Made by a program: the position numbers and the translations under genes. Below the pieces are notes generated by a model. The model saw only the letters and a list, made by a program, of their open reading frames with translations. It was not told the DNA's origin and made no database searches. Shown in pieces: positions 44,092-64,000 of a stretch of 64,000 nt of DNA. How positions within the stretch are numbered: position 1 is the first letter of the stretch; every line of letters starts with the position of its first letter. Source of the stretch: Candidatus Aldehydirespirator sp. (GTDB lineage Bacteria; Actinomycetota; Acidimicrobiia; Acidimicrobiales; Aldehydirespiratoraceae); contig OZ241903.1 in the NCBI GenBank assembly GCA_965203635.1, forward strand, positions 2,690,918 to 2,754,917, in the 5' to 3' direction.

Positions 44092-44093
44092 GG

Positions 44094-46795: not shown

Positions 46796-46827
46796 GCTGT
46801 CGCCGCGCCGATAGTCGGGAATGGATC

Positions 46828-46868
46828 GGGCCGGTCCGCCAGAGCGCGAGCATCCGGCGGACCGGCCC
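46828..46868 (-). terminator. Intercistronic 13-bp perfect hairpin after the binding-protein gene
   Basis: GGGCCGGTCCGCC-N15-GGCGGACCGGCCC, between the binding-protein stop (46884) and the livH start (46795). Confidence 0.55.
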
Positions 46869-46883
46869 GAACGTAGCCGACGT

Positions 46884-48266: not shown

Positions 48267-48310
48267 TTGCCCTCCTTGATTACGCGGGACCGTACCTATC
48301 CCGGTAACGC

Positions 48311-48322
48311 GAATCTAGATTC
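48311..48322. promoter_or_regulatory. Perfect 12-bp palindrome in the promoter region of the LIV operon
   Basis: GAATCTAGATTC lies 45-56 nt upstream of ATG 48266. Read on the minus strand it contains a TAGATT -10-like hexamer. Confidence 0.4.
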
Positions 48323-48404
48323 CGGAACCTGGCCCCGCCAGTGCCGACTAGGACCATAGACATATCAATTGAGGTATGCATCTTGGGATACCGCGTCGGC
48401 GGCG

Positions 48405-49927
<1,523 letters not shown>

Positions 49928-49951
49928 TTGGCGGCGCGCAGCCCCCTGTGG

Positions 49952-51397: not shown

Positions 51398-51402
51398 GGC
51401 AA

Positions 51403-51414
51403 GAATCTAGATCT
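51403..51414. promoter_or_regulatory. Second copy of the GAATCTAGAT motif, directly upstream of the aldehyde dehydrogenase start
   Basis: GAATCTAGATCT shares 10 of 12 positions with 48311..48322. On the minus strand, TAGATT ends 6 nt before ATG 51397 (leaderless geometry). Confidence 0.35.
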
Positions 51415-51479
51415 TCGCCCGACCGGACTCGATTGCCGAGTTTCGGGGTCCACATACCAGCCGTGGTAATTCCTCAATC

Positions 51480-52421
51480 TCACTCGTCACCCTCAGACCG
51501 GACGCGGGCTGCGTGTCGCAGCGCCTCGATCAGCCTGTGAGCGCTGGCGGGCAGCTCGCCACCCGATCGGGTGATGATCCCGACCGGGACCGATGTGCCC
51601 TCTATTTCGACCTTGAGCGACACCAACGCGTCGCGATCGAGGTCGTCGCCGAATATTCCCGACGGGACGACGGCCAGATGCTCGCCCCGTAGCACAAGCG
51701 CTCTCAGAGGCACGGGCGCGACGCACTCGGTGACGTTGTGCGGTGCTCGACTGCACTCCCGGATGAAAGCGGCTTCGATCTGATGGCGCAGCGAGGTGTC
51801 GCGTGGCGGCAGGATCCAGGCGTCGTCCACGAGTTCGGCCAGGCTTCCCCGGTGCCCGGACCGGAGGTGTCTCGGGGTGCAGACGACCTGCACGTCATCG
51901 TCGAACAGCGGCTCGACGTCCACGCCCGGCATCGAGGCCAGAGGGGTCACACGCCCTACCACGAAGTCGACCTGGCCCGACATCAGATCCTCGTGGAGCC
52001 GATCGGGGGTCCCTTCGGAGATCGCGACGCCCACGCCCGGATGACGGCGGGTGACCTCGAACACCGCAGCCGGCAGGATGTCCGCGGTACCGGCGAGGAG
52101 CGTGCCCACTCGCACCTCTCCCCGTTCGCCGTCGACGATCTCGTCGGCGTGGCGGAGCAGCGAGCCCACCTCGGAGGTCACGAGCTGCATATGAGTGATG
52201 AGCGGCGCGCCGGCCGCGGTGACCGTCATGCCCTTGGGTCCCCGGTCGAACAGCTGCACGCCGAGGATCCGCTCGAGCTCGGCCAGCGAGCGAGACATCG
52301 CGGGCTGGGTCAGGTGCAGCACCGCGCTGGCCTCGCGGATCGATCCGCGGTGGGCGATCGTCGCCGCCACGATCATGTGGCGGAGCCTGATCTGCCGTGA
52401 CAGCAGCTCGGCCGGCCGCAC
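51480..52421 (-). CDS. LysR family transcriptional regulator
   Basis: HTH IRLRHMIVAATIAHRGSIREASAVLHLTQPAMSRSLAELE plus a LysR substrate-binding domain. The start is placed at GTG 52421, because the ORF-track start at 52490 would translate through an AT-rich palindromic promoter-like segment. Confidence 0.85.
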   Translation of the reverse strand: MRPAELLSRQIRLRHMIVAATIAHRGSIREASAVLHLTQPAMSRSLAELERILGVQLFDRGPKGMTVTAAGAPLITHMQLVTSEVGSLLRHADEIVDGERGEVRVGTLLAGTADILPAAVFEVTRRHPGVGVAISEGTPDRLHEDLMSGQVDFVVGRVTPLASMPGVDVEPLFDDDVQVVCTPRHLRSGHRGSLAELVDDAWILPPRDTSLRHQIEAAFIRECSRAPHNVTECVAPVPLRALVLRGEHLAVVPSGIFGDDLDRDALVSLKVEIEGTSVPVGIITRSGGELPASAHRLIEALRHAARVRSEGDE

Positions 52422-52430
52422 ATCATAATG

Positions 52431-52440
52431 ATATCGATAT
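52431..52440. promoter_or_regulatory. Perfect 10-bp palindrome in the lysR/marR divergent region
   Basis: ATATCGATAT sits within the AT-rich stretch CATCATAATGATATCGATATGTGCTATG, 10 nt upstream of the proposed lysR start. Confidence 0.35.
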
Positions 52441-52610
52441 GTGCTATGCCGAGTCCCGTCGCTTTTGCTAGGCCCTTCGTCGCAGTTCATCTCAGAAGCG
52501 AGCGTCTCTCTACTCGACTTCGCTCGGCGCTACTCGAAGATCGACGCGAAGTGGTGCCTGTTGGCTCGGATTCTGAGACGCTGTCCTCGTGGTATATCGT
52601 GCCCGGCTGA

Positions 52611-53129
52611 ATGAGCGCAGAGCAGGGTCGATGGTTCGAGCGCCGGGCGGCGCACCTGATCGAGCGGGACCTCCCCGAGGCCGACACCGAGGTTTTCTCT
52701 TTGTTCTTCAACCTTCTGAGTGCCTCGAACGCAGCATCGTCGGTCATAGAGGCGAGGGCCTTTCGTCCCAAGGGCTTGACGTGGGGCAGTTTCCGAACCC
52801 TCTTCACGCTCATGGTCCTAGGAGACCTGAACCCCAATGAGATCGCCTCACGCTCCGGAGTGAGCGACGCGGCCGTGTCGGGGGTCCTCAAGACGTTGGA
52901 GCGGCAGGGCCACCTGGAACGCACGGTCGATGACTCGGATCGTCGCCGAGTGCGGGTGTCGATCACTGAATCCGGTCGCCACCTTGTACTGGCCGCCTAC
53001 GGCGATCAGAACAGGGTCGAGCGCGAGGTCGTCGGCTTGCTGAAAGATGACGAGCGAGCAGTGCTGGAGGCGGCCTCCCGCCGCCTGCTTCTCGCACTGC
53101 GTCCCGATAAGACCACGGACGATACATAA
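52611..53129 (+). CDS. MarR family transcriptional regulator
   Basis: Winged HTH NPNEIASRSGVSDAAVSGVLKTLERQGHLERTVDDSDRRRVRVSITESG. Confidence 0.9.
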   Translation: MSAEQGRWFERRAAHLIERDLPEADTEVFSLFFNLLSASNAASSVIEARAFRPKGLTWGSFRTLFTLMVLGDLNPNEIASRSGVSDAAVSGVLKTLERQGHLERTVDDSDRRRVRVSITESGRHLVLAAYGDQNRVEREVVGLLKDDERAVLEAASRRLLLALRPDKTTDDT

Positions 53130-53166
53130 TACCTAGGGAGTTGACTATTAGGTCCTTAGGTATTAT
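53126..53166 (+). promoter_or_regulatory. 10-bp perfect inverted repeat bracketing a promoter: candidate MarR operator
   Basis: ATAATACCTA-N21-TAGGTATTAT, with TTGACT (53141..53146) in the spacer and TATACA 17 nt downstream of it. The RBS AAGGAGGAG precedes ATG 53204. Confidence 0.5.
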
Positions 53167-53203
53167 ACATGGTGCATCCGTCCGCGTGCGAAGGAGGAGC
53201 ACC

Positions 53204-54559
53204 ATGAAGCGGGTCAAGTTTGGATGCCTGGCTGTGTTGGCAGCGTTCGCGCTGATCGTCTCGGCCTGCGGTGACGATGACGAGGCGTCGCCGATCCCGA
53301 CGCAGCCGCCAAGCGAGGACGCGTCCGACGCCCAAGCGGCACCGGAACCAGCCGAGTCGGAGACTGAGCCGGAATCCGAACAGGCGCCCGCGGCGACAGA
53401 GGCACCCGAGGCCACTGATCCGGAGGTGCCGACCGAGGAGACGCCGGACGAAGGCGAGACCGAGCCGTCTGCCGGCCCGGTGACGATCGGGCTCCTGTAC
53501 TCGAACTCGGGCCCCGGAGGCGTGCTTGGGCCGCCGGCCGAGCGGGCGCTACGGCTTGCAGTGGAGGACATCAACGCTGCTGGCGGGGTCAACGGCTCCG
53601 AGGTGCGGATCGAACTGGCCGACACCGCTACCGACCCCGCGGTGGGACGCGATGCCATGGAACGGCTGGTGTCGGAGGCCGCAGTGGACGTCGTGATCGG
53701 CATCCACTCCTCCGCTACCCGTGAGGCGGCCAGGCCACTGGCCGAGGAGTTCGACACGCTCTATCTCTACGGCTCCCTCTACGAGGGAGGGGAATGCTCT
53801 GCTGCGATGTTCAACTCCGGCGAGGTTCCGGCCCAGCATCTCGGCCCGGCCATTCCCTGGATCATGGAGCGCACTGGCGGAACCCGGTGGTTCCTGCTCG
53901 GCAACGACTACGTGTGGCCCCGGAAGAGCTTCGAGGCCGCCAAGAGGATCATTGAGGACGCAGGCGGCGAGATTGTGGGCGAGCAGTACGTGCCTCTCGG
54001 CACCCAGGACTTCGGCGATGTGCTCGCTGACCTAGCCGCGGCAGACGCCGATCTGATCCTGCCTGCCCTCGTGGGCGGAGACGCCATCGCGTTCGAACTC
54101 CAGGCCCCCGACTTTGGCGCGGGCCAGGACGAAGTGGCCCGTCTGGCCAACATCTACGAGGAAGGGGTGCTGGGCGCCATCGGGCCAGAACTCACCGCGG
54201 GCATGATCGTGACGCTGGGATACGTCAAGGAGGTCGACACCGCCGCCAACCGTTCCTTCGTGGAGAGGTACGTCTCGGAGTTCGGCCAGGACTTCCCGCC
54301 CAACACCTTCGCAGCCCACGTGTATGAACTCGCTCTCCTGTGGGCAGCCGCGGCCAACGATGCAGGAACCGTAGCGGCGGGAGACGTGAGCGCTGCGCTC
54401 AAGGGCCGGTCTATCGACTCCGTACGCGGTACCGTGACCGTGACCGAGTCGCGCCATCTGGCCCAGCCGATGTTCCTAGTCGAGATAACCCCCGACGGAG
54501 AGCAAGTCATCGTGGAGTCCTTCGAGTCCCTGGATCCCGAAGAAGGCTGCACGCTGTGA
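53204..54559 (+). CDS. LIV/AmiC-family ABC substrate-binding lipoprotein with an acidic spacer
   Basis: MKRVKFGCLAVLAAFALIVSAC lipobox, an acidic Pro/Glu/Thr spacer of about 68 aa (53270..53473), then a type-I binding fold (VTIGLLYSNSGPGGVLG...). Confidence 0.9.
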   Translation: MKRVKFGCLAVLAAFALIVSACGDDDEASPIPTQPPSEDASDAQAAPEPAESETEPESEQAPAATEAPEATDPEVPTEETPDEGETEPSAGPVTIGLLYSNSGPGGVLGPPAERALRLAVEDINAAGGVNGSEVRIELADTATDPAVGRDAMERLVSEAAVDVVIGIHSSATREAARPLAEEFDTLYLYGSLYEGGECSAAMFNSGEVPAQHLGPAIPWIMERTGGTRWFLLGNDYVWPRKSFEAAKRIIEDAGGEIVGEQYVPLGTQDFGDVLADLAAADADLILPALVGGDAIAFELQAPDFGAGQDEVARLANIYEEGVLGAIGPELTAGMIVTLGYVKEVDTAANRSFVERYVSEFGQDFPPNTFAAHVYELALLWAAAANDAGTVAAGDVSAALKGRSIDSVRGTVTVTESRHLAQPMFLVEITPDGEQVIVESFESLDPEEGCTL

Positions 54560-54577
54560 CCACCGCTCCGGCGGTGG
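54560..54577 (+). terminator. Intercistronic hairpin immediately after the binding-protein stop
   Basis: CCACCGC-TCCG-GCGGTGG is a perfect 7-bp stem starting 1 nt after the TGA. Confidence 0.5.
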
Positions 54578-54614
54578 CGGGCCTCGCTAGAGGTGCGATT
54601 GCCCAATTCCATCA

Positions 54615-55460
54615 GTGCTGCATGTACTCAACGCTCTCAGCCTCCTAGCGACTCTCGGCCTCACCGCGCTCGGGCTATGGATCGTCTTCGGGCTGATGAA
54701 CGTAGTGAACGTCGCCCATGGCGAGTTCGCCATGCTGGGCGCCTACTCGATGGTCGTGCTGACCGAGGCGGGACTCAATCATTGGGTCGCGGTGGCCATC
54801 ACGCCCGGGCTCCTGCTGCTGGTCGGCGCCGCATGCGAGCTGACGGTGTTCCGGCGGCTGCGAACCAGGCGGGAGGTCAGCCTGCTGGCCGCCTTCGGAC
54901 TCTCGATAGTCATCCGCGAAGTGGTCCAGTTGGTGTTCGGGCGGCAGCAGCGATCGATCCCGAACCCGCTGCGGGGCGGGACGGAGATCCTCGGCGTCAC
55001 GTACCCCAGATACCAGCTCCTCGTGATCGCGATCGCCATCGGGGTGCTCCTGGCAGCATGGCTCGTGTTGCGCTACAGCCGGGCTGGACTGGTCATGAGA
55101 TCAGTGGTCGCCGACCGGGACCTGGCCGAGACGCTGGGGATCCGAGCGGCGCGGGTGGACACCGTCGCCATGGCGGTGGGAGCAGCGTCGGCCGGCTTGG
55201 CGGGAGCCCTGCTCGCGCCCCGAATCTCAATAGAGCCCACCGCGGGCCTGAACCTGCTGCTCGGCGCATTCCTCGTGGTGATCGTGGGCGGCTTCCGCAG
55301 GGCGAGTGCGGTGGTGCTCGGCGCGGCTGCCGTCGCGGCCATCACCACAGTGGTGGCCCTCTGGTACGACGCAGTCTGGGGGCAGGTGGCCGCGGTGGCC
55401 GCGGCCGCACTCGTGCTCCAGACCCGGGTGGAGACCGGGCTGAGAGGGGTGGTGCGGTGA
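54615..55460 (+). CDS. LIV-type ABC permease (LivH-like)
   Basis: MLHVLNALSLLATLGLTALGLWIVFGLMNVVNVAHGE is a LivH-type N-terminus on a polytopic protein. Confidence 0.9.
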   Translation: MLHVLNALSLLATLGLTALGLWIVFGLMNVVNVAHGEFAMLGAYSMVVLTEAGLNHWVAVAITPGLLLLVGAACELTVFRRLRTRREVSLLAAFGLSIVIREVVQLVFGRQQRSIPNPLRGGTEILGVTYPRYQLLVIAIAIGVLLAAWLVLRYSRAGLVMRSVVADRDLAETLGIRAARVDTVAMAVGAASAGLAGALLAPRISIEPTAGLNLLLGAFLVVIVGGFRRASAVVLGAAAVAAITTVVALWYDAVWGQVAAVAAAALVLQTRVETGLRGVVR

Positions 55461-57196
55461 GACTGGAGCTTCGCCGGCCGGTGCGGGCAGCGTTGATCGT
55501 CGGGGCCGCAGTCGTGGCGGTGGCCGCGCTCCAGAACCAGACGGGCTTCTACGCGGACCAGATCGCGCAAGCGGCAACGCTGGCCCTGTTGGCCGTGAGC
55601 CTCGACATCGTGTGGGGCCACGGAGGCATCGTCAGCCTGGGCCAGACGGTCCCGTTCGGTGTCGCCGCCTACCTGACGGCTCGGCTCACCATGGAAGCGC
55701 CGAACATGACGATCCCGATCATTGTGCTGGCCGCCGTGGCGGGATCCGTCGTCGGCTTGCTAATGGGCATGGTGCTCCTGCGCCGGAGACGGTCGGCCAT
55801 GACCATCGCCCTGTTCACGATGATGCTGTCGCTTCTGGCGGAGCGGCTCGCCGCCAAGCTCCAGATCATCGGCGGATTCAACGGCCTCGGCGGGGTGCCC
55901 CCCTTCCACCTCGGACCGATCGAGCTGTCGAGCGCCACCCGGGACCTGCTGATCGTCGGGGTATGCGCGGCGACCGTTGTGGGGACATGGTCGTTGTTGC
56001 GGCGCCCGGTGGGGGGCGTGCTCCTGGGAGTGCGCGACTGCGAGCCGCGAATGGCCGCTTCCGGCTACCACACCATCGCCGTGAAGATCGCCGCAATGGC
56101 GGCAGGGGGCGCCGTTGCCGGACTCGGAGGCGCCCTCTACGCGATGCAGGCCGGGTTCGTGTATCCCGGAGTGTTCGGCTTCGGGTTCATCGCTGACACC
56201 TTGCTGTGGACCCTCATCGGCGGATTCGGGACTCTTGTCGGGCCGGTTGCGGCGACGGTCGGGTTGACCCTGCTCGAGGAGTACCTCGCCAGCGAGGCGA
56301 TCGAGTACTGGCTCCTGCTCACGGGGCTCTCCTTCCTTCTTCTGGTGATGTTTGTCGAGGGCGGCCTAGCCATGCAGTTCCGCCGCTGGCTGGGGCGAGG
56401 CCCGCGGACGCCCAACCAGGTCGAGCTAGCCCCGAGGGAGCAGAGCCGAAGGGATCCGTCCCGCTTGCGTGCAGTGTCCCTGAGTTCCAGTTTCGGTGCC
56501 TTTCGAGCTCTGAACGGTGTCGACCTGGATGTGGCCGATCCTGGCGTCTACTGCCTCATCGGGCCCAACGGCGCGGGCAAGACGACGCTGCTCGACACAT
56601 TGTGCGGGTTCCAGCGGATCACCTCCGGTCGGGTCGAATTCGACGGCACGGACCTGACCGATCAGCGGCCCTGGAGGTTCGCCCGTATGGGCCTCGCACG
56701 GAAGTTCCAGACCCCCCATGTGATGGGCTCGCTCACGGTGTCCGAGAACGTTGCCCTGGCCGCGTTCGCTAACGGCCAGAGGGCGGGTTGGATGTGGAGC
56801 CGCACCTGGCACGCGGAGGTCCCATCCGAAGCCATGAACGCGCTGACATCAGCAGGACTGAACGAGCGCCTCGACGCTCTGGCCGGGGACCTTTCTCACG
56901 GCGAGCAGCAGTGGCTCGAGACGGTGCTAGCGCTGTGCACCCGACCCCGTGTTGTCCTGCTCGATGAGCCCACCGCGGGAATGACGGCCACCGAGAGCCG
57001 CCACGCCGCCCGGCAGCTCCGAGCCATCGCCGCGAGCCAACGAATCCCCCTCATCGTCGTGGAGCACGACACAACCTTCATCAAGGAGGCTTCCGACCAT
57101 GTCACGGTGCTCGCCGGAGGCGAAGTGATCGCCGAGGGAACAGTCGAGGAGATCGAAGCGGACCCGCGAGTCAAGGACCTCTACTTTGCGCAATGA
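55457..57196 (+). CDS. Fused LIV-type permease (LivM-like) and ATP-binding (LivG-like) protein
   Basis: The N-terminal half is polytopic, with SLDIVWGHGGIVSLGQTVPFGVAAY. The C-terminal half has Walker A GPNGAGKTT, signature LSHGEQQWLE and Walker B VLLDEP. GTG 55457 overlaps the livH-like stop (GTGA). Confidence 0.85.
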   Translation: MRLELRRPVRAALIVGAAVVAVAALQNQTGFYADQIAQAATLALLAVSLDIVWGHGGIVSLGQTVPFGVAAYLTARLTMEAPNMTIPIIVLAAVAGSVVGLLMGMVLLRRRRSAMTIALFTMMLSLLAERLAAKLQIIGGFNGLGGVPPFHLGPIELSSATRDLLIVGVCAATVVGTWSLLRRPVGGVLLGVRDCEPRMAASGYHTIAVKIAAMAAGGAVAGLGGALYAMQAGFVYPGVFGFGFIADTLLWTLIGGFGTLVGPVAATVGLTLLEEYLASEAIEYWLLLTGLSFLLLVMFVEGGLAMQFRRWLGRGPRTPNQVELAPREQSRRDPSRLRAVSLSSSFGAFRALNGVDLDVADPGVYCLIGPNGAGKTTLLDTLCGFQRITSGRVEFDGTDLTDQRPWRFARMGLARKFQTPHVMGSLTVSENVALAAFANGQRAGWMWSRTWHAEVPSEAMNALTSAGLNERLDALAGDLSHGEQQWLETVLALCTRPRVVLLDEPTAGMTATESRHAARQLRAIAASQRIPLIVVEHDTTFIKEASDHVTVLAGGEVIAEGTVEEIEADPRVKDLYFAQ

Positions 57197-57758
57197 AAGC
57201 CCACTGCTGATCCCCTACCGGGGCGCGGTGCCCACCATCGGCAAGAACGTGTACATCGCCCCCAACGCCGCGGTCATCGGCGATGTCGTCATCGGCGACG
57301 AGTCCAGCATCTGGTTCGGAGCGACGGTGCGGGGCGACTTCGGTCCGATCCGCATCGGGGAGCGATGCTCGGTGCAGGACAGTGCCACCGTCCACGTGTT
57401 CCACACCGACTCGGGCCCGGTACCTACACAGATCGGCGACGACGTCACGATCGGCCACGGAGCGGTGATAGAAGGCTGCGTTGTGGGCGACGGGGTGCTG
57501 ATCGGCGCCAACGCCGTGCTGCTTCCGGGGGTGTCGGTGGGCGACGGATCGATCGTGGCTGCGTCGGCGCTGGTCAAAGGGGGCGAGCAGGTGCCCTCCG
57601 GTCACGTGGTCGCGGGTGTACCGGCCAAGGTGATCGGGCCGACCAGCGCCGAGTCGCGGTCTCTTGCCCGGTTCTCGGCCGCGGAGTATGTGGAGCTGCA
57701 GGCGGCCTATCGAGCCGGACAGAGCAGCCGGAATGCCATCGGGGGCCGCGGAGAATGA
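57186..57758 (+). CDS. Gamma-carbonic-anhydrase/PaaY-like hexapeptide-repeat protein
   Basis: Left-handed beta-helix repeats (VYIAPNAAVIGDVVIGDESSIWFGATVRGD...IGDDVTIGHGAVIEGCVVGDGVLIGANAVL). TTG start overlapping the upstream gene by 11 nt. Confidence 0.85.
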   Translation: MRNESPLLIPYRGAVPTIGKNVYIAPNAAVIGDVVIGDESSIWFGATVRGDFGPIRIGERCSVQDSATVHVFHTDSGPVPTQIGDDVTIGHGAVIEGCVVGDGVLIGANAVLLPGVSVGDGSIVAASALVKGGEQVPSGHVVAGVPAKVIGPTSAESRSLARFSAAEYVELQAAYRAGQSSRNAIGGRGE

Positions 57759-59098
57759 GCGGCGCGGGCCACTGGTCCAAAGCGGAGTCGATGGAGCCCG
57801 AGGAACTGCGCTGCCTCCAGGAAGAGAAGCTGAGAGCACAGCTCGCAAGGTTGTACCGGACCTCCGCCTTCTATCGCCGCAAGTTCGATGACGCCGGCGC
57901 AACGCCGTGCGACATCGTGACCTTCGAGGACCTCTCCGGCTTTCCTTTCACCGAGAAGCAGGAACTGAGGGACAGCCAGCGCGATCACCCGCCGTTGGGG
58001 GCGCACGCCGGCGTGGCCATGGCCGATGTAGCGAGAATCCATGCCACATCCGGAACTACGGGCACGCCCAGCTACATCGGCGTGACCGAGCACGACAGCG
58101 CGCTGTGGCGGGAGGCGGTGGCCCGCGCCTACTTCGCCCAGGGGGTCAGGTCCTCCTCGGTGGTGGTGATCGGCTTCGGCATCGGATTCTTCGTCGGGGG
58201 GCTGCCGGTGCCGCAGGCACTGGCAGCCATCGGGGCTACCGCGATCCCGGTGGGTGTCGGGGCCACCGACCGGCTCGTCAGTGCAGTCGCCGACCTGACG
58301 GCCGATGTGCTCACCTGCACACCGTCCTACGCCGCCCACATCGCCGATCACATCGCTTCTCACCGCGGAACGGACCCCTCGGAACTCGGGCTGAAGCGCA
58401 TCCTTGTGGGCGCCGAGCCGGGCGGGAGCATCCCGGCTGTGCGGGCCGCGCTCGAGCAGGCATGGAACGCCAAGGTCACCGAATCCGTCGGCAACGGCGA
58501 CGTGATCCCGATCCATTCGGGCGAGTGCGAGGCGCAGACCGGAAACCACTTCCTGGTGCCCGACATGGTGCTGCCCGAGATCATCGACCCCCACAGCGGC
58601 GCAGTCGTGGATGTCGGCTGCCGCCCGGTATGCGGAGAGCTGGTGCTCACCCACCTGGACCGACAGTGCGGAGCGCTGGTTCGGTTCCGAACCCGTGACC
58701 ATGTCGAGGTCCGTGGCGACCGGTGCGAGTGCGGCCGGACCGGCCCCAGAATGGTCTGTATCGGCCGGACCGACGACATGCTGCTGGTGCGGGGCGTCAA
58801 CGTGTGGCCGTCCGCGATCAAGGACGTCGTCACCGGTTTCGCGCCCCGGGTCACCGGCCATCTCCGGATCGCGCTCGACGGCGACGGGCATCATCACGAA
58901 CCTCCGCTGCATGTGGTCGTCGAAGCCGACCCCGACGCAATCAATCCCAGCGAGATCGAGGCAGCGCTGCGGGCGAGGCTGGTCGCGACCTGCTCTGTCT
59001 CCTTCGTCGCGCCCGGAACATTCCCCCGAACCCACGCCAAGGAGAGGCTCCTATGGCGACGCGACCTGGATCCCGACCCTCGCCGAGCCGGAGCGTGA
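57755..59098 (+). CDS. Phenylacetate-CoA ligase (PaaK)/F390-synthetase family adenylating enzyme
   Basis: FYRRKFDDAG, FPFTEKQELR and HATSGTTGTPS (adenylation P-loop), with length and layout typical of PaaK-like enzymes. ATG overlaps the upstream stop (ATGA). Confidence 0.85.
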   Translation: MSGAGHWSKAESMEPEELRCLQEEKLRAQLARLYRTSAFYRRKFDDAGATPCDIVTFEDLSGFPFTEKQELRDSQRDHPPLGAHAGVAMADVARIHATSGTTGTPSYIGVTEHDSALWREAVARAYFAQGVRSSSVVVIGFGIGFFVGGLPVPQALAAIGATAIPVGVGATDRLVSAVADLTADVLTCTPSYAAHIADHIASHRGTDPSELGLKRILVGAEPGGSIPAVRAALEQAWNAKVTESVGNGDVIPIHSGECEAQTGNHFLVPDMVLPEIIDPHSGAVVDVGCRPVCGELVLTHLDRQCGALVRFRTRDHVEVRGDRCECGRTGPRMVCIGRTDDMLLVRGVNVWPSAIKDVVTGFAPRVTGHLRIALDGDGHHHEPPLHVVVEADPDAINPSEIEAALRARLVATCSVSFVAPGTFPRTHAKERLLWRRDLDPDPRRAGA

Positions 59099-59102
59099 AC
59101 CG

Positions 59103-60284
59103 ATGACCGCCATGACCTTCGACAATGTGCGGATCCTTGACCGCAGCTACTGGTCGAGCCCCTTCCACCGCTGGCAGGGCGCATTCGCCGACGCGTCCCC
59201 GATCGAACTGGCAGCCGAGTGCGGCCGCAAGGCCGCTTCCTTGGGTCGCATCGACTTGGAGACCGTCGATCAACTCCACCTCGGCGTCACGATCCCCTCC
59301 CCCGCCGTCTTCTTCGGCGCGCCGCGCCTCGCTTCGCTGCTCGGCGCGCCCGCGACAGTCACCGGTCCCACCATCAGCCAGGCCTGTGCCACCTCGGCCG
59401 CAGTGCTGGCCAGCGCGGCTTCGGCCATCGACCTGGGAGACAGCCGCAGCGCGCTGGCGGTGTGCGCCGACCGAACCAGCAACGGACCCCACCTCTATTA
59501 CCCGCGCTCGTCGGCGGCCCCGGGCATCAGCGAGGACTGGGTGTGGGACAACTTCACCGATCCGGACCTGGGCCACCAGATGATCGCGACCGCCGAGAAC
59601 ATCGCGGCCGAGGGCGGCTTCACGCGACGTGACCAGGACCGGATGACCGTGCTGCGCCACGCCCAGTACGAGCAGGCTCTGGCGTCGGACCGGGCGTTCC
59701 AGCACCGCTACATGGTCGAGCCCGAAGTCGCTGCCAGCGGAGGCGCCGGCGGCGGCGACCGGGGACCCCGAGTGGCCACCGAGCAGACGGTCTCGGCCAA
59801 GAGATCGGTCGTGGCATCGGGAACGGTTACCCCACTGAGCCAGACGTTTCCCGCCGACGGCAACGCCGGCGTACAACTCGTCAGCAAAGATGTCGCCGCG
59901 GCCACTACTGGGACCAGCGTCCACTTGCTGGGCTACGCCACCGCCCGAGCCCGTCCGGCCTACATGGGCCAGGCGCCGGTCGCAGCCGCGCGCTCGCTGC
60001 TGGACCGGCTGTCGCTGGGTGCCGGCTCCATCGCCGCGGTCAAGACCCACAACCCCTTCGCAGTCAACGACGTCTACCTCTGCCGGGAACTCGACCTGGA
60101 ATGGGAGCAGGTGAACAACTACGGCAGCTCGCTCGTGTGGGGGCACCCGCAAGGACCAACCGGTCTGAGATCGGTGATCGAACTGATCGAGGAACTCCGC
60201 GCCGAAGGAGGCGGCTACGGGCTGTTCACCGGCTGCGCAGCCGGTGACACCGGAGCCGCGATCGTCGTGAGAGTCGATGCCTAG
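59103..60284 (+). CDS. Thiolase family protein (acetyl-CoA C-acyltransferase-like)
   Basis: Catalytic Cys context ISQACATSAAVL, GTVTPLSQTFPADGNAG, NNYGSSLVWGHPQGPTGLR (His) and FTGCAAGDTGAAIVV (second Cys). Confidence 0.8.
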   Translation: MTAMTFDNVRILDRSYWSSPFHRWQGAFADASPIELAAECGRKAASLGRIDLETVDQLHLGVTIPSPAVFFGAPRLASLLGAPATVTGPTISQACATSAAVLASAASAIDLGDSRSALAVCADRTSNGPHLYYPRSSAAPGISEDWVWDNFTDPDLGHQMIATAENIAAEGGFTRRDQDRMTVLRHAQYEQALASDRAFQHRYMVEPEVAASGGAGGGDRGPRVATEQTVSAKRSVVASGTVTPLSQTFPADGNAGVQLVSKDVAAATTGTSVHLLGYATARARPAYMGQAPVAAARSLLDRLSLGAGSIAAVKTHNPFAVNDVYLCRELDLEWEQVNNYGSSLVWGHPQGPTGLRSVIELIEELRAEGGGYGLFTGCAAGDTGAAIVVRVDA

Positions 60285-60978
60285 CGCCGCTGCCTCGCCG
60301 CTGCTGGTCGCCAGGAATCTGCGGGCCGCATACGGCCGTGTCCCGGTACTTCACGGCGTCTCGCTTCACGTGGGCCGGGCCGAGATCGTGGCGGTGATGG
60401 GACGCAACGGCGCGGGCAAGACGACGCTCGCCTCCGCGCTGGCGGGAACACTCCGGCCCAGCGCAGGCGAGGTTCTCCTCCACGGCCGGGACGTGACCGG
60501 CCACTCGGCCTCGGCCGTGGCCCGAGCCGGGATGGCCTGTGTACGCCAGGATCAGCCGCTGTTCGGCGAGCTCACGGTGGAGGAGAACCTGAGCCTGGCC
60601 GGTCTCGCCGGTTCCGCTAAGGAGGTCCTGTCGGTGTTTCCGGGAGTGTTCGAGGGCCGGGCTTCTCAGAGGGCGTCCACCCTTTCAGGGGGCGAGCAGA
60701 AGATGCTCGCCTCGGCGCGCTGCCTGTGTTCGGATCAGCCGCTCATGCTCTTCGACGAGCCGACCGAGGGTCTCCAGCCGGCCAACGTGTCCCACCTGAT
60801 GCGGCACATGGAAGCGGCACGGGCGAGGGGCTGCGGCGTGCTCCTGATCGAGCAGCACGCCGCGGCAGCGCTTGCGATCGCCGACCGCTACTGCGTCCTG
60901 GAGAAGGGCGAGATCGTTGCGGAGGGTGTCGCGGACGCCGAGGCGGCAGAGCACGTCTCGGCGCTACTGGCCGTGTAG
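60277..60978 (+). CDS. LIV-type ABC ATP-binding protein (LivF-like)
   Basis: Walker A GRNGAGKTT, signature LSGGEQKML, Walker B LMLFDEP. It overlaps the thiolase gene by 8 nt. Confidence 0.9.
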   Translation: MPSAAASPLLVARNLRAAYGRVPVLHGVSLHVGRAEIVAVMGRNGAGKTTLASALAGTLRPSAGEVLLHGRDVTGHSASAVARAGMACVRQDQPLFGELTVEENLSLAGLAGSAKEVLSVFPGVFEGRASQRASTLSGGEQKMLASARCLCSDQPLMLFDEPTEGLQPANVSHLMRHMEAARARGCGVLLIEQHAAAALAIADRYCVLEKGEIVAEGVADAEAAEHVSALLAV

Positions 60979-60986
60979 GGGCAGCC

Positions 60987-62345
60987 ATGACCGAACCATT
61001 CGAACTGCTGCTGGACGAGGCGCGGAGCATGCTGGACGCGGGCGAACTGTCGGCGCGGGAACTGACCGCCTCCTGTCTTGATCGAATCGAGGACCACGAA
61101 GCGGAGATAGGAGCCTTTGCCCGGGTGTTCGCCGACGAGGCCTTGGAACGCGCCGCCGAACTCGACGCGTCGCAGCCGCGTGGAACGCTGCACGGCATAC
61201 CGGTGGCGGTGAAGGACCTCATCGAGGTGGCCGGACATCCGACTGAGGCAGGCAGCCCGGCCTACTCGGGACACCTCTCCGGTGGTGACGCGGCAGTGGT
61301 GAGCATGCTCCGGCAGGCCGGCGCGATCATCATCGGCAAGACCAACACCCACGAGTTGGCCTTCGGCGTCTCGACCCCGTCCGCTCGCAATCCGTGGTCG
61401 CTTGACCGCATGACGGGCGGATCCTCCGGAGGCAGCGCAGCGGCCCTAGCCGCCGGGATGGTCCCGGCCGCTCTCGGCACCGACACGGGAGGATCGGTGC
61501 GCAACCCGAGCAGCTACTGCGGAACGGTCGGGCTGAAGACCACGCCCGGGCTGGTGTCACGCGACGGGCTGTTTATGCTCTCGACCCGCTACGACGTGAT
61601 CGGACCGATGACGCGCAGCTGTACCGACGCGCGCCGCTTGCTGACGGCGATGGTCGGCCCGAAGGCGGTCGGGCGGCTCGACGACCGCGGCGCGGGCGCT
61701 ACGGAGATTCTCGTCGGGTTGCCCGCGGCCCCATTCTACGAGGGCATGAACCTGGCCCCCGAGGTCGAGGCTGCGTACCAGAAGAAGGTCGAACAGCTGA
61801 TGACCACCGGCGCCTCGATGCGAGAGGTGTCTCCCCCCTCGCACTTGGAGCACAGCGGACCCGGCTCGGTGATAGTGGCTGCCGAGTCTCTCCATCAGCA
61901 CCGGCGCGTCCTCACTGAGACGCCTGAGCTGATTTCCGAGGACATCCTCGGGTTCATCTCGCTGGCCGACGGCTTGGCCGCAGCGGAGCTCGCAGCCGCC
62001 CATGCGGCCGTGAGCGGCTTGCAGCGGCAGTGGCTGAGCATCTTCGACGAAGTCGACTTCGTCGTCTGCCCGGTAACTCCCAACCATGTCCCGCCCCACG
62101 GTTTGAGCGAGCTGGCCGGCGTGCCGCTGATACCGGCCACCACACCGTTGACTTTCCCGATCAACGGCGCCGGGCTTGCCGCGCTGGCGATACCGGACGG
62201 GCCGGCCGGCGACGGCCTGCCCGTCGGGGTCCAGATCATCGGTCCGCCCGGCAGCGACCTCCGCCTGCTGGCCCTGGCCGAGCGACTGGAGCAGCAGGGC
62301 ATGATGTCGGCGCCGCTCGCCACTGTCGGAGGGAACTCCGGCTGA
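60987..62345 (+). CDS. Amidase signature (GatA-like) family amidase
   Basis: LHGIPVAVKDL, GKTNTHELAFG, and GGSSGGSAAALAAGMVPAALGTDTGGSVRNPSSYCG (Ser-cisSer-Lys signature). Confidence 0.9.
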   Translation: MTEPFELLLDEARSMLDAGELSARELTASCLDRIEDHEAEIGAFARVFADEALERAAELDASQPRGTLHGIPVAVKDLIEVAGHPTEAGSPAYSGHLSGGDAAVVSMLRQAGAIIIGKTNTHELAFGVSTPSARNPWSLDRMTGGSSGGSAAALAAGMVPAALGTDTGGSVRNPSSYCGTVGLKTTPGLVSRDGLFMLSTRYDVIGPMTRSCTDARRLLTAMVGPKAVGRLDDRGAGATEILVGLPAAPFYEGMNLAPEVEAAYQKKVEQLMTTGASMREVSPPSHLEHSGPGSVIVAAESLHQHRRVLTETPELISEDILGFISLADGLAAAELAAAHAAVSGLQRQWLSIFDEVDFVVCPVTPNHVPPHGLSELAGVPLIPATTPLTFPINGAGLAALAIPDGPAGDGLPVGVQIIGPPGSDLRLLALAERLEQQGMMSAPLATVGGNSG

Positions 62346-62379
62346 GATTGCGAGACTATTGGCAGACTTGGGCTGACTG

Positions 62380-63240
62380 ATGAGCGTTCCGTTCGATCAT
62401 CTCTCGCGTGCAGAACTGGACCGGCAGCTCTCGCCGAGCCTGTCGGCCCGGGACGCGGCCGGTGTCCTGCAGCGGCTCGAGACCGAGACGGCCGGCCTGT
62501 CCGGCGTGCCCGAGCTTGATTGCACGCTCGACATCGCCTACGGGCCCGGAGCGCGCCAACAGATGGACCTGTACCGGCCGACGGGCGCCGCCGGCCCGGT
62601 CGGCTGTCTCGTCTTCCTCCACGGCGGCTTCTGGCAGAGAGGCAGCAAGGCCTGGTCGGGCTTCCCGGCCCGCAGCCTGGCCGCCAACGGCTGGGCCCTC
62701 GCCGGGGTCGGCTACACCCTGGCCCCCGAGGCGAGCCTGGCCGCCATCGTCGATGAGGCCGCCCTGGCGCTCTCGACGCTCGCATCGAGAGCGGCCGAGT
62801 TCGGCCTCGACCGGGACCGGTTCGTGCTGGCCGGACACTCGGCCGGAGCCCATCTCACCGCCGCCGTTCTCACCGGTATGGGGGGCGAGCATGCCGCCCA
62901 GGTGCCGGTCAGAGCCCTGCTCGTCAGCGGCGTGTACGACCTCGCCCCCATTGCCGCGTCCTACGTCAACAACGCCGTCGGCATGGACGCGGCGGACGTC
63001 GCCCGGCTCTCACCGATCCACCGGCAGCCGCTGAAGGACCTGCCGGTGCGGCTGCTGATCGGCTCGGCGGAACCGGACGCGTTCCAGGCGCAGACCGAAG
63101 CGCTGCACACCGCTTGGAGCGAGCACCTGTCGCATCTGTCGGTGGAGGCCGTGGCGGGATGCGACCACTTCGACATCCTCGACCAGCTGAGCGACCCGGA
63201 CTCCCCCACCGGCCGGTTCATCCTGGACGACGAGCGCTAG
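62380..63240 (+). CDS. Alpha/beta hydrolase of the arylformamidase (AFMID/Bna7-type kynurenine formamidase) kind
   Basis: VFLHGGFWQRGSK oxyanion motif, nucleophile elbow AGHSAGAHL, and CDHFDI near the C-terminus. Confidence 0.7.
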   Translation: MSVPFDHLSRAELDRQLSPSLSARDAAGVLQRLETETAGLSGVPELDCTLDIAYGPGARQQMDLYRPTGAAGPVGCLVFLHGGFWQRGSKAWSGFPARSLAANGWALAGVGYTLAPEASLAAIVDEAALALSTLASRAAEFGLDRDRFVLAGHSAGAHLTAAVLTGMGGEHAAQVPVRALLVSGVYDLAPIAASYVNNAVGMDAADVARLSPIHRQPLKDLPVRLLIGSAEPDAFQAQTEALHTAWSEHLSHLSVEAVAGCDHFDILDQLSDPDSPTGRFILDDER

Positions 63241-63379: not shown

Positions 63380-64000
63380 TCAGAACGATGTGCGGATGGC
63401 CCAGAGGTCGGGGAACGCGGGCTGCATGATGGTGGTGCGCAGGTAGGCGGCCCCGTCTGAGCCGCCCGTGCCGTGCTTGGTGCCGATGGTGCGCTGCACC
63501 ATCATCACGTGGCGGTACCGCCACTCCATGAAGCCCTCGTCGAAGTCGGTCAGCAGCTCGCAGATCTCCAGCAGCGCCGGGTGGGACCGGTAGATCTCCA
63601 CCAGGGTGGCCTGCACCTCGGGCGAGGGCACGTGCGGGAGGGTCACGTCGCGCTCGACGACCTCCTCGGGGATGTCGAACCCGGCTCGGGCCAGGTAGCG
63701 CACGAAGGCGTCCCAGATGGTCGGCGCCTGAAGCCGGCGCTCCAGGCGCCGGCGGGCGTCCGGCTCGTGGTCGATGAGGTCGAGGTGGGCGGGGTCGAAC
63801 TGGCCGAGCAGCAGCTCGAGCTCTCGGAACTGCGACGACTGGAAGCCGCTGGCGCTCTCCAGGAACGGGCGGAAGGATGCGAACTCGAGCGGGGTCATGG
63901 TCTCGAGCACGTCGAGCTGGCTGACGAGGGTCTTGAGGATCTTGAGGACGCGCTTGAGCTGGTGGCTGCCTCTCGACGGAGCGTCGGCGCTGAGGTGGCG
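63380..64000 (-). CDS. kynA: Tryptophan 2,3-dioxygenase, C-terminal about 206 aa (N-terminus beyond the right edge)
   Basis: VLETMTPLEFASFRPFLESASGFQSSQFRELELLLG and WRYRHVMMVQRTIGTKHGTGGSDGAAYL. The frame stays open from 63910 up to position 64000 (...HQLKRVLKILKTLVSQLD). Confidence 0.9.
   Translation of the reverse strand, partial: RHLSADAPSRGSHQLKRVLKILKTLVSQLDVLETMTPLEFASFRPFLESASGFQSSQFRELELLLGQFDPAHLDLIDHEPDARRRLERRLQAPTIWDAFVRYLARAGFDIPEEVVERDVTLPHVPSPEVQATLVEIYRSHPALLEICELLTDFDEGFMEWRYRHVMMVQRTIGTKHGTGGSDGAAYLRTTIMQPAFPDLWAIRTSF

What the first reader, a model, noticed from the sequence alone, without database searches (positions are those of the whole stretch)
53204..63240. MarR-headed operon interleaving a LIV-type ABC importer with PaaY-like, PaaK-like, thiolase, amidase and kynurenine-formamidase genes
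Ten co-directional genes run from 53204 to 63240 with tiny gaps or overlaps (GTGA at 55457, an 11-nt overlap at 57186, ATGA at 57755, an 8-nt overlap at 60277). In order they are:
1. binding lipoprotein
2. LivH-like permease
3. LivM-LivG fusion
4. gamma-CA/PaaY-like protein
5. PaaK-family adenylating enzyme
6. thiolase
7. LivF-like ATPase
8. amidase-signature amidase
9. AFMID-type arylformamidase

The second ATPase of the importer therefore sits after three CoA-thioester enzymes. This argues that transport and CoA activation are expressed as one unit, i.e. uptake-coupled thioesterification.

The PaaY/PaaK/thiolase trio resembles the activation, rescue and final-thiolysis steps of phenylacetate catabolism. 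However, no ring-epoxidase (paaABCDE), isomerase or hydrolase genes are present. The amidase and formamidase, together with the convergent kynA, tie the operon to tryptophan-derived amides or aryl acids such as N-formylkynurenine, anthranilate or indole-3-acetamide/acetate-like compounds.

I do not recognise this gene combination as a described pathway.
Basis: partly seen in the sequence, partly recalled or inferred. Interest (0 to 1): 0.75.

Follow-up and report, generated by a model that had tools for sequence, protein, structure and literature searches.

The report
Amide-uptake operon feeding a ligase–thiolase pair
A marine actinobacterium carries a conserved, uncharacterised operon that probably imports an amide, hydrolyses it to an acid, attaches coenzyme A and splits the product with a dedicated thiolase; the same ligase–thiolase pair is attached to several different feeder enzymes in bacteria from several phyla.

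Summary
Ten co-directional genes lie at the stated coordinates with the stated overlaps. The same order recurs in relatives at 64-95% protein identity.

The interpretation needs revision on four points:
- **Transporter.** It is closest to the urea/amide (Urt/AmiC) branch, not the Liv amino-acid branch.
- **Position of the second ATPase.** It is lineage-specific. In a sister genome it follows the first ATPase. In proteobacteria the transporter and amidase form a separate divergent operon. Gene order therefore does not support uptake-coupled thioesterification.
- **"Formamidase".** It is absent from a 94.6%-identical relative and from 104 related loci. It belongs with the flanking kynurenine genes.
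- **"Paa" trio.** All three proteins fall far below the paa family cut-offs.

The ligase belongs to a distinct subfamily. Most often it sits immediately after acetophenone-carboxylase genes, in the position of benzoylacetate-CoA ligase. The thiolase belongs to a clade also found in indoleacetate (iaa-type) clusters, where the last step cleaves 2-aminobenzoylacetyl-CoA.

Around this ligase-thiolase core the feeder enzymes are swapped: amidase, nitrilase with aldoxime dehydratase, amine oxidase with aldehyde dehydrogenase, and carboxylase.

Best reading: amide → 3-oxo acid (aroylacetate type) → CoA ester → aroyl-CoA + acetyl-CoA. The substrate is inferred, not shown. I rate this a new variant of known kinds.

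The parts
52611..53129 (+). MarR-family regulator, directly upstream of the structural genes
   Evidence: Pfam MarR 50 bits. It matches no specific NCBIfam equivalog. It is conserved at the same place in L003, L008/L091, L010, L093 and L094.
53119..53173 (.). AT-rich imperfect palindrome (ATAATACCTAGG...CCTTAGGTATTAT) overlapping a TTGACT-N17-TATACA promoter-like site in the marR-sbp spacer. It is a candidate promoter and MarR operator for the nine structural genes.
   Evidence: Inverted repeat I1: 21-nt arms, 81% complementary. The motif is conserved in L091, L010, L094 and L003, and duplicated in L010/L094. Its function is inferred.
53204..54559 (+). Substrate-binding lipoprotein of the urea/amide (UrtA/AmiC/FmdD-like) branch of the HAAT family
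   Evidence: Peripla_BP_6 298 bits and Peripla_BP_5 251 bits. UrtA model 231 bits against a cut-off of 493; LivJ-type model 38 bits. Best solved relatives are 8TG1, urea-binding proteins and AmiC.
54615..55460 (+). Permease (UrtB/LivH-like)
   Evidence: BPD_transp_2. UrtB model 179 bits against a cut-off of 250.
55457..57196 (+). Fused permease-ATPase (UrtC-UrtD/LivM-LivG-like)
   Evidence: BPD_transp_2 plus ABC_tran. UrtD model 233 bits, UrtC model 125 bits. The same fusion occurs in L001, L003, L005, L007 and L091.
57186..57758 (+). Hexapeptide-repeat protein (gamma-carbonic-anhydrase/PaaY/CaiE-like); presumed acyl-CoA thioesterase
   Evidence: Hexapep. PaaY model 112 bits against a cut-off of 320; gamma-carbonic-anhydrase model 140 against 250. 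34% identical to E. coli PaaY. The clade has GHGAV(I/V)EGC where PaaY has GHSAILHGC.
57755..59098 (+). PaaK-family adenylating CoA ligase of a distinct subfamily; proposed 3-oxo-acid (aroylacetate-type) CoA ligase
   Evidence: PaaK models 262-304 bits against cut-offs of 646-700. 33% identical to E. coli PaaK. Orthologues at about 52-54% identity directly follow or precede acetophenone-carboxylase genes in at least 25 loci. His300, Cys305, Cys324 and Cys326 are invariant in the subfamily alignment and absent from E. coli PaaK.
59103..60284 (+). Thiolase of a distinct, widespread clade; proposed aroylacetyl-CoA (3-aryl-3-oxopropionyl-CoA) thiolase
   Evidence: Thiolase_N and Thiolase_C. All NCBIfam thiolase models score below their cut-offs. 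Cys95, His348 and Cys378 are kept; the motif reads HNPF where a solved thiolase (3SS6) has NEAF. More than 578 species genomes carry the clade. Ten loci pair it with IaaF-type (GGG) acyl-CoA dehydrogenases.
60277..60978 (+). Second ATPase of the importer (UrtE/LivF-like)
   Evidence: ABC_tran. UrtE model 184 bits against a cut-off of 286. This position after the thiolase is seen only in the window-type relatives; in L001 the gene follows the fusion protein.
60987..62345 (+). Amidase-signature amidase
   Evidence: Pfam Amidase 324 bits. Best NCBIfam models (indoleacetamide hydrolase 261 against 532; AtzE 246 against 461) all score below their cut-offs. The GGSSGGS motif is present. It is co-conserved with the transporter in at least five ligase clades.
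62380..63240 (+). Alpha/beta hydrolase of the AFMID/hormone-sensitive-lipase type; accessory and strain-variable, probably a kynurenine formamidase serving the neighbouring kynA
   Evidence: Abhydrolase_3 and BD-FAE. HGGFW and GHSAG motifs are present. Solved relatives are 2PBL and Drosophila kynurenine formamidase 4E11, E 3e-15. It is absent from the 94.6%-identical relative and from all 104 related loci.
63380..64000 (-). Neighbour, not a member: convergent tryptophan 2,3-dioxygenase (kynA), cut by the window end
   Evidence: Trp_dioxygenase 144 bits. The full orthologue in L091 is followed by a kynurenine-3-monooxygenase-like gene. The L-Trp-binding residues are kept except Tyr113Phe.

Best explanation
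This is a MarR-controlled catabolic operon for an imported primary amide. The proposed steps are below.

1. **Import (inferred from family).** A urea/amide-type ABC importer takes up the amide. It consists of the binding lipoprotein, the permease, the permease-ATPase fusion and the second ATPase.
2. **Hydrolysis (inferred from family).** The amidase-signature enzyme hydrolyses the amide to a carboxylic acid and ammonia.
3. **Activation (inferred).** A PaaK-family ligase of a separate subfamily converts the acid to its CoA thioester.
4. **Cleavage (inferred).** The thiolase encoded 4 nt downstream cleaves the thioester to acetyl-CoA and a shorter acyl-CoA. No dehydrogenase or hydratase is needed in between, because the acid is already a 3-oxo acid. 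The most likely type is an aroylacetate, that is, benzoylacetate or a ring-substituted relative.
5. **CoA rescue or product release (inferred).** The PaaY-like hexapeptide protein probably acts as a thioesterase that frees trapped CoA or releases the aroyl product.
6. **Regulation (inferred).** MarR probably represses a promoter in the marR-sbp spacer until a pathway intermediate binds.

**Shown:** gene content, gene order, conservation and family assignments.
**Inferred:** every reaction and the substrate.
For: **Family assignments**
- All ten proteins were assigned by Pfam and NCBIfam.
- The transporter proteins score best against the Urt models. The binding protein's nearest solved relatives are urea-binding proteins and the amide sensor AmiC.

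**Ligase context**
- In a metagenome sample of 80 loci, 20 carry the full set of acetophenone-carboxylase genes next to this ligase subfamily. The order matches apcABCDE-bal. About nine shorter contigs carry the adjacent ApcE-sized gene.
- The same arrangement is found in Thermogemmatispora, an Ardenticatenaceae genome, Rubrobacter xylanophilus and Paradesulfitobacterium aromaticivorans.
- The Thermogemmatispora subunits are true acetophenone-carboxylase orthologues. They score 927 and 561 bits to 5L9W, against 156 and 180 bits to acetone carboxylase.
- In Aromatoleum, apcA-E lie in one operon with benzoylacetate-CoA ligase. Benzoylacetyl-CoA is then thiolysed by a thiolase that is still unidentified (PMC4729919, PMC5214803).

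**Thiolase context**
- The thiolase lies immediately downstream of the ligase in 23 of 50 metagenome loci with enough flank. It lies elsewhere in the locus in 5 more.
- Ten loci of the same thiolase clade lie beside acyl-CoA dehydrogenases that carry GGG in place of YEG. GGG is the hallmark of IaaF (PMC8360864). These loci also encode a B12 mutase, a CoA transferase and a hydantoinase.
- That pathway proceeds from 2-aminocinnamoyl-CoA by beta-oxidation (PMC8360864). From general knowledge of the pathway, its last step would be thiolysis of 2-aminobenzoylacetyl-CoA.

**Feeder swapping**
- Feeder enzymes are swapped on one ligase subfamily. Amidase plus ABC occurs in at least four clades. The window's sister locus (77% identity) uses aldoxime dehydratase plus nitrilase instead.

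**Regulation**
- A conserved palindrome and promoter-like site lie in the marR-sbp spacer.
Against: - No enzyme of this ligase subfamily or thiolase clade has been characterised, as far as I could find.
- I could not check whether Aromatoleum Bal itself belongs to the subfamily. No hit named as Bal appeared among the best 120.
- Natural primary 3-oxo-amides and 3-oxo-nitriles are rare.
- Three of the feeder types have arylacetic acids as their textbook products, not 3-oxo acids. These are aldoxime dehydratase plus nitrilase, copper amine oxidase plus aldehyde dehydrogenase, and amidase.
- One nitrilase-type locus lies beside 4-hydroxyphenylacetate genes.
- At about 50% identity, ligases in different contexts could have different substrates.
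- The thiolase is missing from 22 of 50 loci with enough flank.
- The structure prediction of the binding protein failed (pLDDT 42). There is therefore no information on the binding pocket.
Confidence: 0.45

Rival explanations
1. Arylacetamide route. The operon imports phenylacetamide, 4-hydroxyphenylacetamide or indole-3-acetamide. The amidase makes the arylacetic acid and the ligase makes arylacetyl-CoA. The thiolase acts only later, after steps encoded elsewhere in the genome.
For: - The ligase is a PaaK-family enzyme.
- The amidase's top NCBIfam model is indoleacetamide hydrolase.
- Alternative feeders are the classic arylacetate-forming sets: aldoxime dehydratase plus nitrilase (L001, L089), and copper amine oxidase plus aldehyde dehydrogenase (L125, L171).
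- L089 lies beside homoprotocatechuate-pathway genes.
- From general knowledge, MarR regulators head known auxin-catabolic loci.
Against: - It gives the thiolase no direct role. Yet the thiolase is the ligase's commonest immediate neighbour, and no dehydrogenase, hydratase or ring-oxygenase gene is conserved with the pair.
- It does not explain the dominant acetophenone-carboxylase context.
- The PaaK and IaaH model scores are less than half the cut-offs.
- PaaK-like genes found in two loci that carry this thiolase clade (L015, which is iaa-type, and L018) are only 33-37% identical to this ligase.
Confidence: 0.25
2. Two unrelated modules that happen to be adjacent. One is a nitrogen-scavenging importer for urea-like or small amides, with its amidase. 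The other is a separate ligase-thiolase module.
For: - In proteobacteria the two halves are separate divergent operons.
- Most loci of the ligase subfamily lack the transporter and amidase.
- The transporter scores best against urea-transporter models.
Against: - The two halves co-occur in at least five separate ligase clades from different phyla.
- In the window family they are interleaved with overlapping stop and start codons.
- All Urt scores are below the urea-transporter cut-offs.
- In L001 the same transporter is joined to nitrilase plus aldoxime dehydratase instead of the amidase. This fits a shared carbon skeleton rather than nitrogen scavenging.
Confidence: 0.12
3. Uptake-coupled thioesterification (vectorial acylation). 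The ligase works physically with the transporter, and this is why the second ATPase gene sits after the CoA enzymes.
For: Only the interleaved gene order and translational coupling in the window family.
Against: - The interleaving is absent from the sister locus L001 and from all proteobacterial versions.
- The imported compound must first be hydrolysed by a soluble amidase, so the ligase cannot act on the transported molecule itself.
- The same ligase works with feeders that need no transporter.
Confidence: 0.05

Closest known systems
Acetophenone pathway of Aromatoleum aromaticum (apcABCDE-bal, followed by a thiolase)
   Same: The downstream logic is the same: a 3-oxo acid (benzoylacetate) is made, activated by a CoA ligase and thiolysed to benzoyl-CoA plus acetyl-CoA (PMC4729919, PMC5214803). 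Orthologues of the window's ligase occupy the bal position after true Apc orthologues.
   Different: The window has no carboxylase. Its feeder is an amide importer plus an amidase. Whether Bal is of the PaaK type could not be checked here. The Aromatoleum thiolase is unidentified.
Aldoxime-nitrile-amide pathway with acyl-CoA synthetase (Pseudomonas chlororaphis B23 type; from general knowledge)
   Same: An amide, nitrile or aldoxime is converted to an acid and then to an acyl-CoA by genes in one cluster. The sister locus L001 and locus L089 carry aldoxime dehydratase plus nitrilase.
   Different: In the window the ligase is of the PaaK family and is followed by a dedicated thiolase. An ABC importer is built in, and there is no nitrile hydratase.
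Phenylacetate catabolon (paaK, paaY, paaJ)
   Same: The same three protein families stand side by side: an adenylating ligase, a hexapeptide thioesterase-like protein and a thiolase.
   Different: Identity to the E. coli proteins is 33%, 34% and 28%. All equivalog scores are below the cut-offs. No paaABCDE, paaG or paaZ genes are in the region examined.
Anaerobic indoleacetate (iaa) cluster
   Same: The thiolase clade is shared. Iaa-type loci with IaaF-like (GGG) dehydrogenases carry it. A MarR-type regulator and a PaaK-family ligase are also part of that system (from general knowledge; PMC8360864 describes iaaR only as a transcriptional regulator).
   Different: The window has no mutase, CoA transferase, molybdenum enzyme or IaaF. 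PaaK-like genes found in two loci that carry this thiolase clade (L015, L018) are only 33-37% identical to the window's ligase.
Urea (UrtABCDE) and short-chain amide (FmdDEF/AmiC) systems
   Same: The transporter proteins match these best, and the binding protein belongs to Peripla_BP_5.
   Different: All scores are below the urea-transporter cut-offs. The UrtC-like and UrtD-like proteins are fused. The partner genes are CoA-thioester enzymes, not urease or formamidase.

Membership tests
Phenylacetate catabolon (paa) | Ligase reaches the PaaK equivalog score | tested here: not met
   TIGR02155 262 bits against a cut-off of 646; NF041878 304 against 700. 33% identical to E. coli PaaK.
Phenylacetate catabolon (paa) | Hexapeptide protein reaches the PaaY equivalog score | tested here: not met
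   TIGR02287 112 bits against a cut-off of 320. 34% identical to E. coli PaaY, and the second His of the GHxAxxHGC motif is Glu.
Phenylacetate catabolon (paa) | Thiolase is of the PaaJ/PcaF type, and ring-epoxidase genes paaABCDE are present | tested here: not met
   TIGR02430 108 bits against a cut-off of 597. 28% identical to PaaJ. No such genes among the neighbours scanned between 28.7 and 64 kb.
Urea ABC transporter UrtABCDE | All five components reach the equivalog scores | tested here: not met
   UrtA 231 against 493, UrtB 179 against 250, UrtC 125 against 296, UrtD 233 against 304, UrtE 184 against 286. These are the best matches but all are below the cut-offs.
Branched-chain amino-acid transporter LivJHMGF | Components reach the Liv equivalog scores | tested here: not met
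   LivJ-type 38 against 477, LivH 63 against 379, LivG 147 against 362, LivF 168 against 441. Membership of the wider HAAT superfamily is met (Peripla_BP_6, BPD_transp_2, ABC_tran).
Amidase-signature family | Amidase domain with the Gly/Ser-rich signature | tested here: met
   PF01425 324 bits over the whole length. GGSSGGS is present.
Indoleacetamide hydrolase (IaaH) | Reaches the equivalog score | tested here: not met
   NF005688 261 bits against a cut-off of 532. AtzE and GatA score almost the same, so the ranking is not discriminating.
Thiolase (Cys-His-Cys) | Nucleophilic Cys, catalytic His and acid/base Cys are conserved | tested here: met
   Cys95, His348 and Cys378 are invariant in six orthologues and align with 3SS6. 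The motif that reads NEAF in 3SS6 reads HNPF here.
Acetophenone carboxylase - benzoylacetate-CoA ligase - thiolase pathway | Carboxylase genes apcABCDE are present | tested here: not met
   None in the window region. They are present next to ligase orthologues elsewhere.
Acetophenone carboxylase - benzoylacetate-CoA ligase - thiolase pathway | Ligase is an orthologue of the characterised Bal enzyme | not testable with these tools
   The Bal sequence was not retrievable. No hit named as Bal appeared among the best 120 of either search. The papers that describe it are not held.
Anaerobic indoleacetate (iaa) cluster | IaaF-type dehydrogenase, B12 mutase and CoA transferase are present | tested here: not met
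   Absent from the window. Present beside the same thiolase clade in L011, L013-L015, L020, L026, L041, L049, L058 and L085.
AFMID-type kynurenine formamidase | Alpha/beta hydrolase with HGGxW and GxSxG motifs, similar to known formamidases and conserved with kyn genes | tested here: inconclusive
   The motifs are present. It matches 4E11 at E 3e-15, but other esterases score better. It is absent from the closest relative, which has the same kyn genes.

The most novel reading that the evidence does not exclude
The ligase-thiolase pair may be the hub of an undescribed pathway for 2-aminobenzoylacetate, yielding anthraniloyl-CoA and acetyl-CoA. Each feeder would deliver a different tryptophan- or quinolone-derived precursor:
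- amidase: 2-aminobenzoylacetamide;
- acetophenone-type carboxylase: 2-aminoacetophenone;
- hydantoinase-like lactamase: 2,4-dihydroxyquinoline;
- copper amine oxidase plus aldehyde dehydrogenase: kynuramine.

This reading would account for three observations:
- the thiolase clade is shared with indoleacetate clusters;
- in Aldehydirespiratoraceae the operon is embedded among kynurenine and 3-hydroxyanthranilate genes;
- the PaaY-like protein would have a role, releasing anthranilate for that lower pathway.
Probability: 0.15. Interest if true: 0.75.

Novelty: new variant of a known kind. Interest (0 to 1): 0.5.

Why it matters
- **Two large, generically named families would gain a concrete role.** These are the "phenylacetate-CoA ligase family protein" subfamily and a thiolase clade present in more than 578 species genomes. 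The role would be a two-enzyme funnel turning 3-oxo acids into acyl-CoA plus acetyl-CoA.
- **It would supply a candidate for a missing enzyme.** The benzoylacetyl-CoA thiolase of the ethylbenzene/acetophenone pathway is still unidentified (PMC4729919).
- **It would show modular pathway evolution.** Amides, nitriles, aldoximes, amines and methyl ketones would be routed into one funnel by swapping feeder modules.
- **It bears on marine and sponge-associated Acidimicrobiia.** It points to organic amides as a source of carbon and nitrogen for these bacteria.

Tried and rejected
- **kynA cleaving indole-3-acetate or indole-3-acetamide instead of tryptophan.** Not supported. The orthologue keeps His55, Arg117, His240 and Thr254 of Xanthomonas TDO; only Tyr113 is Phe.
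- **An amino-acid 2-monooxygenase making the amide (L056).** Rejected. That flavoprotein is phytoene-desaturase-like.
- **Plasmid-borne homologues as annotated models.** The best plasmid hits are at most 44% identical. The one context examined (H3) is an unrelated acyl-CoA carboxylase/HMG-CoA lyase cluster.
- **Internal terminators.** The simple scan found none in 52.3-64 kb, against 3.4 expected in shuffles. This says little in a 68% G+C actinobacterium.
- **Structure of the binding protein.** The single-sequence model had pLDDT 42 and was not used.
- **PDB entry 8TG1**, the nearest solved relative of the binding protein. No paper was found.
- **Papers that could describe Bal or the iaa genes** (PMC3370604, PMC545613, PMC2650882). 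Not held.
- **Literature searches** for this gene combination and for a PaaK-type benzoylacetate ligase. Nothing was returned.

Full report
**1.

The region lies in a genome of about 68% G+C. Translation and family scans confirm ten co-directional genes:

| Gene | Coordinates |
|---|---|
| MarR | 52611-53129 |
| Binding lipoprotein | 53204-54559 |
| Permease | 54615-55460 |
| Permease-ATPase fusion | 55457-57196 |
| Hexapeptide protein | 57186-57758 |
| PaaK-family ligase | 57755-59098 |
| Thiolase | 59103-60284 |
| ATPase | 60277-60978 |
| Amidase-signature amidase | 60987-62345 |
| Alpha/beta hydrolase | 62380-63240 |

- A convergent tryptophan 2,3-dioxygenase gene begins at 63380.

**2. What the proteins are, and are not**

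No protein reaches the curated score of any specific NCBIfam model.

- **Transporter.** It belongs to the HAAT superfamily. Its best models are the urea transporter components UrtA-E, not LivJHMGF. The binding protein hits Peripla_BP_5 strongly. Its nearest solved relatives are 8TG1, three urea-binding proteins and the amide sensor AmiC.
- **Ligase, hexapeptide protein and thiolase.** They are 33%, 34% and 28% identical to E. coli PaaK, PaaY and PaaJ.
- **Ligase subfamily.** His300, Cys305, Cys324 and Cys326 are invariant across the subfamily alignment. E. coli PaaK lacks them.
- **Hexapeptide clade.** It has Glu where PaaY has the second His of GHxAxxHGC.
- **Thiolase.** It keeps Cys95, His348 and Cys378. 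The motif reads HNPF where a solved thiolase (3SS6) has NEAF.

**3. Source and local variation**

The closest genome is a Candidatus Aldehydirespirator sp. chromosome (Acidimicrobiia). It is 94.6% identical in DNA over window 48406-62343.

- Identity stops at the amidase stop codon and resumes at kynA. The relative lacks the alpha/beta hydrolase gene and keeps only its last codons.
- No homologue of that gene occurs in any of 104 loci holding the ligase. It is therefore a strain-variable accessory gene.
- Its motifs and a match to Drosophila kynurenine formamidase make a formamidase role beside kynA plausible but unproven.

In this bacterial family the operon sits inside a kynurenine/3-hydroxyanthranilate gene island:

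- Upstream lie kynureninase, 3-hydroxyanthranilate dioxygenase, a DHDPS-like protein, an aldehyde dehydrogenase and LysR.
- Downstream lie kynA and a kynurenine-monooxygenase-like gene.
- The adjacency survives three different arrangements: window/L091, L092 and L001.
- Outside the family, one further locus has a single such gene: L088 (Tectomicrobia) carries a 3-hydroxyanthranilate dioxygenase homologue (47% identity) about 3 kb from its ligase. None of the other 99 loci has any.
- kynA itself looks like an ordinary L-tryptophan enzyme.

**4. Conservation and modularity**

The full order from MarR to amidase recurs at 64-95% identity. Other arrangements show that the interleaving is local:

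- In the sister locus L001 (ligase 77% identical) the second ATPase directly follows the fusion protein. The amidase is replaced by a nitrilase-family protein plus a haem aldoxime dehydratase.
- In Ruegeria, a Paracoccaceae genome and two other loci, amidase plus transporter form a divergent operon. It faces hexapeptide-ligase-thiolase or GntR-ligase-thiolase.

The interleaved ATPase is therefore a local rearrangement, not evidence of mechanistic coupling.

**5. The thiolase clade**

Two motifs of this thiolase match more than 578 species genomes from many bacterial phyla and from Thermoplasmata.

- Most of these loci lack the ligase. They carry short-chain dehydrogenase, MaoC hydratase, acyl-CoA dehydrogenase, CoA transferase, B12 mutase, molybdenum hydroxylase or indolepyruvate-oxidoreductase-like genes.
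- In ten loci the neighbouring acyl-CoA dehydrogenase has GGG in place of the YEG active-site motif. That is the stated hallmark of benzylmalonyl-CoA dehydrogenase IaaF of the indoleacetate pathway (PMC8360864).
- That pathway proceeds from 2-aminocinnamoyl-CoA by beta-oxidation (PMC8360864). From general knowledge, its last step would be thiolysis of 2-aminobenzoylacetyl-CoA.

**6. The ligase subfamily**

A metagenome scan with a subfamily alignment returned 80 loci.

- *Acetophenone-carboxylase context.* Twenty loci carry two Hydantoinase_A proteins, a gamma subunit, a Hydantoinase_B protein and a roughly 310-residue URO-D-like protein next to the ligase. About nine shorter contigs show the adjacent URO-D-like gene.
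- *Match to Aromatoleum.* The sizes and order match apcA-E of Aromatoleum, which are followed there by the benzoylacetate-CoA ligase gene (PMC5214803).
- *Orthology.* The Thermogemmatispora proteins score 927 and 561 bits to the acetophenone carboxylase structure 5L9W. They score only 156 and 180 bits to acetone carboxylase.
- *Cultured carriers.* They include Rubrobacter xylanophilus and Paradesulfitobacterium aromaticivorans.
- *Other recurrent partners:*
  - aldehyde dehydrogenase plus copper amine oxidase;
  - Amidohydro_3 proteins;
  - gamma-less hydantoinase pairs;
  - nitrilase plus aldoxime dehydratase in L001 and L089;
  - amidase plus transporter.
- *Thiolase adjacency.* The thiolase lies immediately downstream of the ligase in 23 of 50 loci with enough flank, and nearby in 5 more.
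- *Tree.* In a neighbour-joining tree the feeder types are interspersed on one subfamily, far from E. coli PaaK.

**7. Mechanism**

Two independent contexts point to the same chemistry.

- The ligase stands where benzoylacetate-CoA ligase stands.
- The thiolase clade serves a pathway whose last intermediate is an aroylacetyl-CoA.

A ligase followed directly by a thiolase, with no dehydrogenase or hydratase, is sufficient only if the acid is already a 3-oxo acid. I therefore propose these steps:

1. Amide import.
2. Hydrolysis to a 3-oxo acid of the aroylacetate type.
3. CoA activation.
4. Thiolysis to aroyl-CoA plus acetyl-CoA.

The PaaY-like protein would act as a thioesterase. MarR would act at a conserved palindrome that overlaps a TTGACT-N17-TATACA site in the marR-sbp spacer. 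All reactions and the substrate are inferred.

**8. Weaknesses and rivals**

- Primary 3-oxo-amides and 3-oxo-nitriles are uncommon in nature.
- The nitrilase, amine-oxidase and amidase feeders classically yield arylacetates. L089 lies beside 4-hydroxyphenylacetate genes. An arylacetamide route with the thiolase acting later remains a serious rival.
- A chance juxtaposition of a nitrogen-scavenging module is less likely, because the two halves co-occur in several ligase clades.
- Uptake-coupled thioesterification is the least supported reading.
- I could not establish whether Aromatoleum Bal belongs to this subfamily.

**9. Novelty**

All members found carry generic names. My literature searches found no description of this gene combination. 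The parts are known kinds. The combination, and the recurring ligase-thiolase funnel with exchangeable feeders, appear undescribed. I rate it a new variant of a known kind, of moderate interest.

Noticed in passing
window 43384-48314 (- strand): A second, complete LIV-type ABC transporter is present: two ATPases, two permeases and a binding protein. It is inserted between kynureninase (42049-43359) and 3-hydroxyanthranilate dioxygenase (48405-48956). In the 94.6%-identical relative these two genes are adjacent.
   Followed up: partly
window 40150-51397 (- strand): The kynurenine island combines kynureninase and 3-hydroxyanthranilate dioxygenase with an IlvD/Edd-family dehydratase, a DHDPS-like protein and an aldehyde dehydrogenase. 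No ACMS decarboxylase or aminomuconate deaminase gene was seen. The lower pathway may therefore be unusual.
   Followed up: no
L091 15127-15930 (orthologue of window 63380-64000): The tryptophan 2,3-dioxygenase has Phe at the position of Tyr113 of the Xanthomonas enzyme, a residue that contacts the substrate carboxylate. The other substrate-binding and haem-binding residues are kept.
   Followed up: partly
L008 13242-13768: In the close relative, the place of the alpha/beta hydrolase gene holds a short minus-strand fragment of a different alpha/beta hydrolase. The last codons of the window's gene are also there. This marks a decaying or recombining spot.
   Followed up: partly
window 58652-58732 (ligase residues 300-326): His300, Cys305, Cys324 and Cys326 are invariant in the ligase subfamily and absent from E. 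coli PaaK. They may form a metal site.
   Followed up: no
L010 1660-1846 and L094 5335-5521: The promoter/palindrome motif of the marR-sbp spacer is present twice in tandem in these relatives. Part of the ribosome-binding site and start region is duplicated as well.
   Followed up: no
L174 (Rubrobacter xylanophilus CP000386.1 1867471-1886820): Two PaaK-like ligase genes flank the acetophenone-carboxylase-like genes, one on each side. A 4-hydroxyphenylacetate-hydroxylase-like gene lies upstream.
   Followed up: no
window 29992-31341 and 34836-37268: A Rieske ring-hydroxylating oxygenase alpha subunit and a large haem peroxidase (catalase-peroxidase-like) lie upstream of the island. This fits an aromatic-compound lifestyle.
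   Followed up: no
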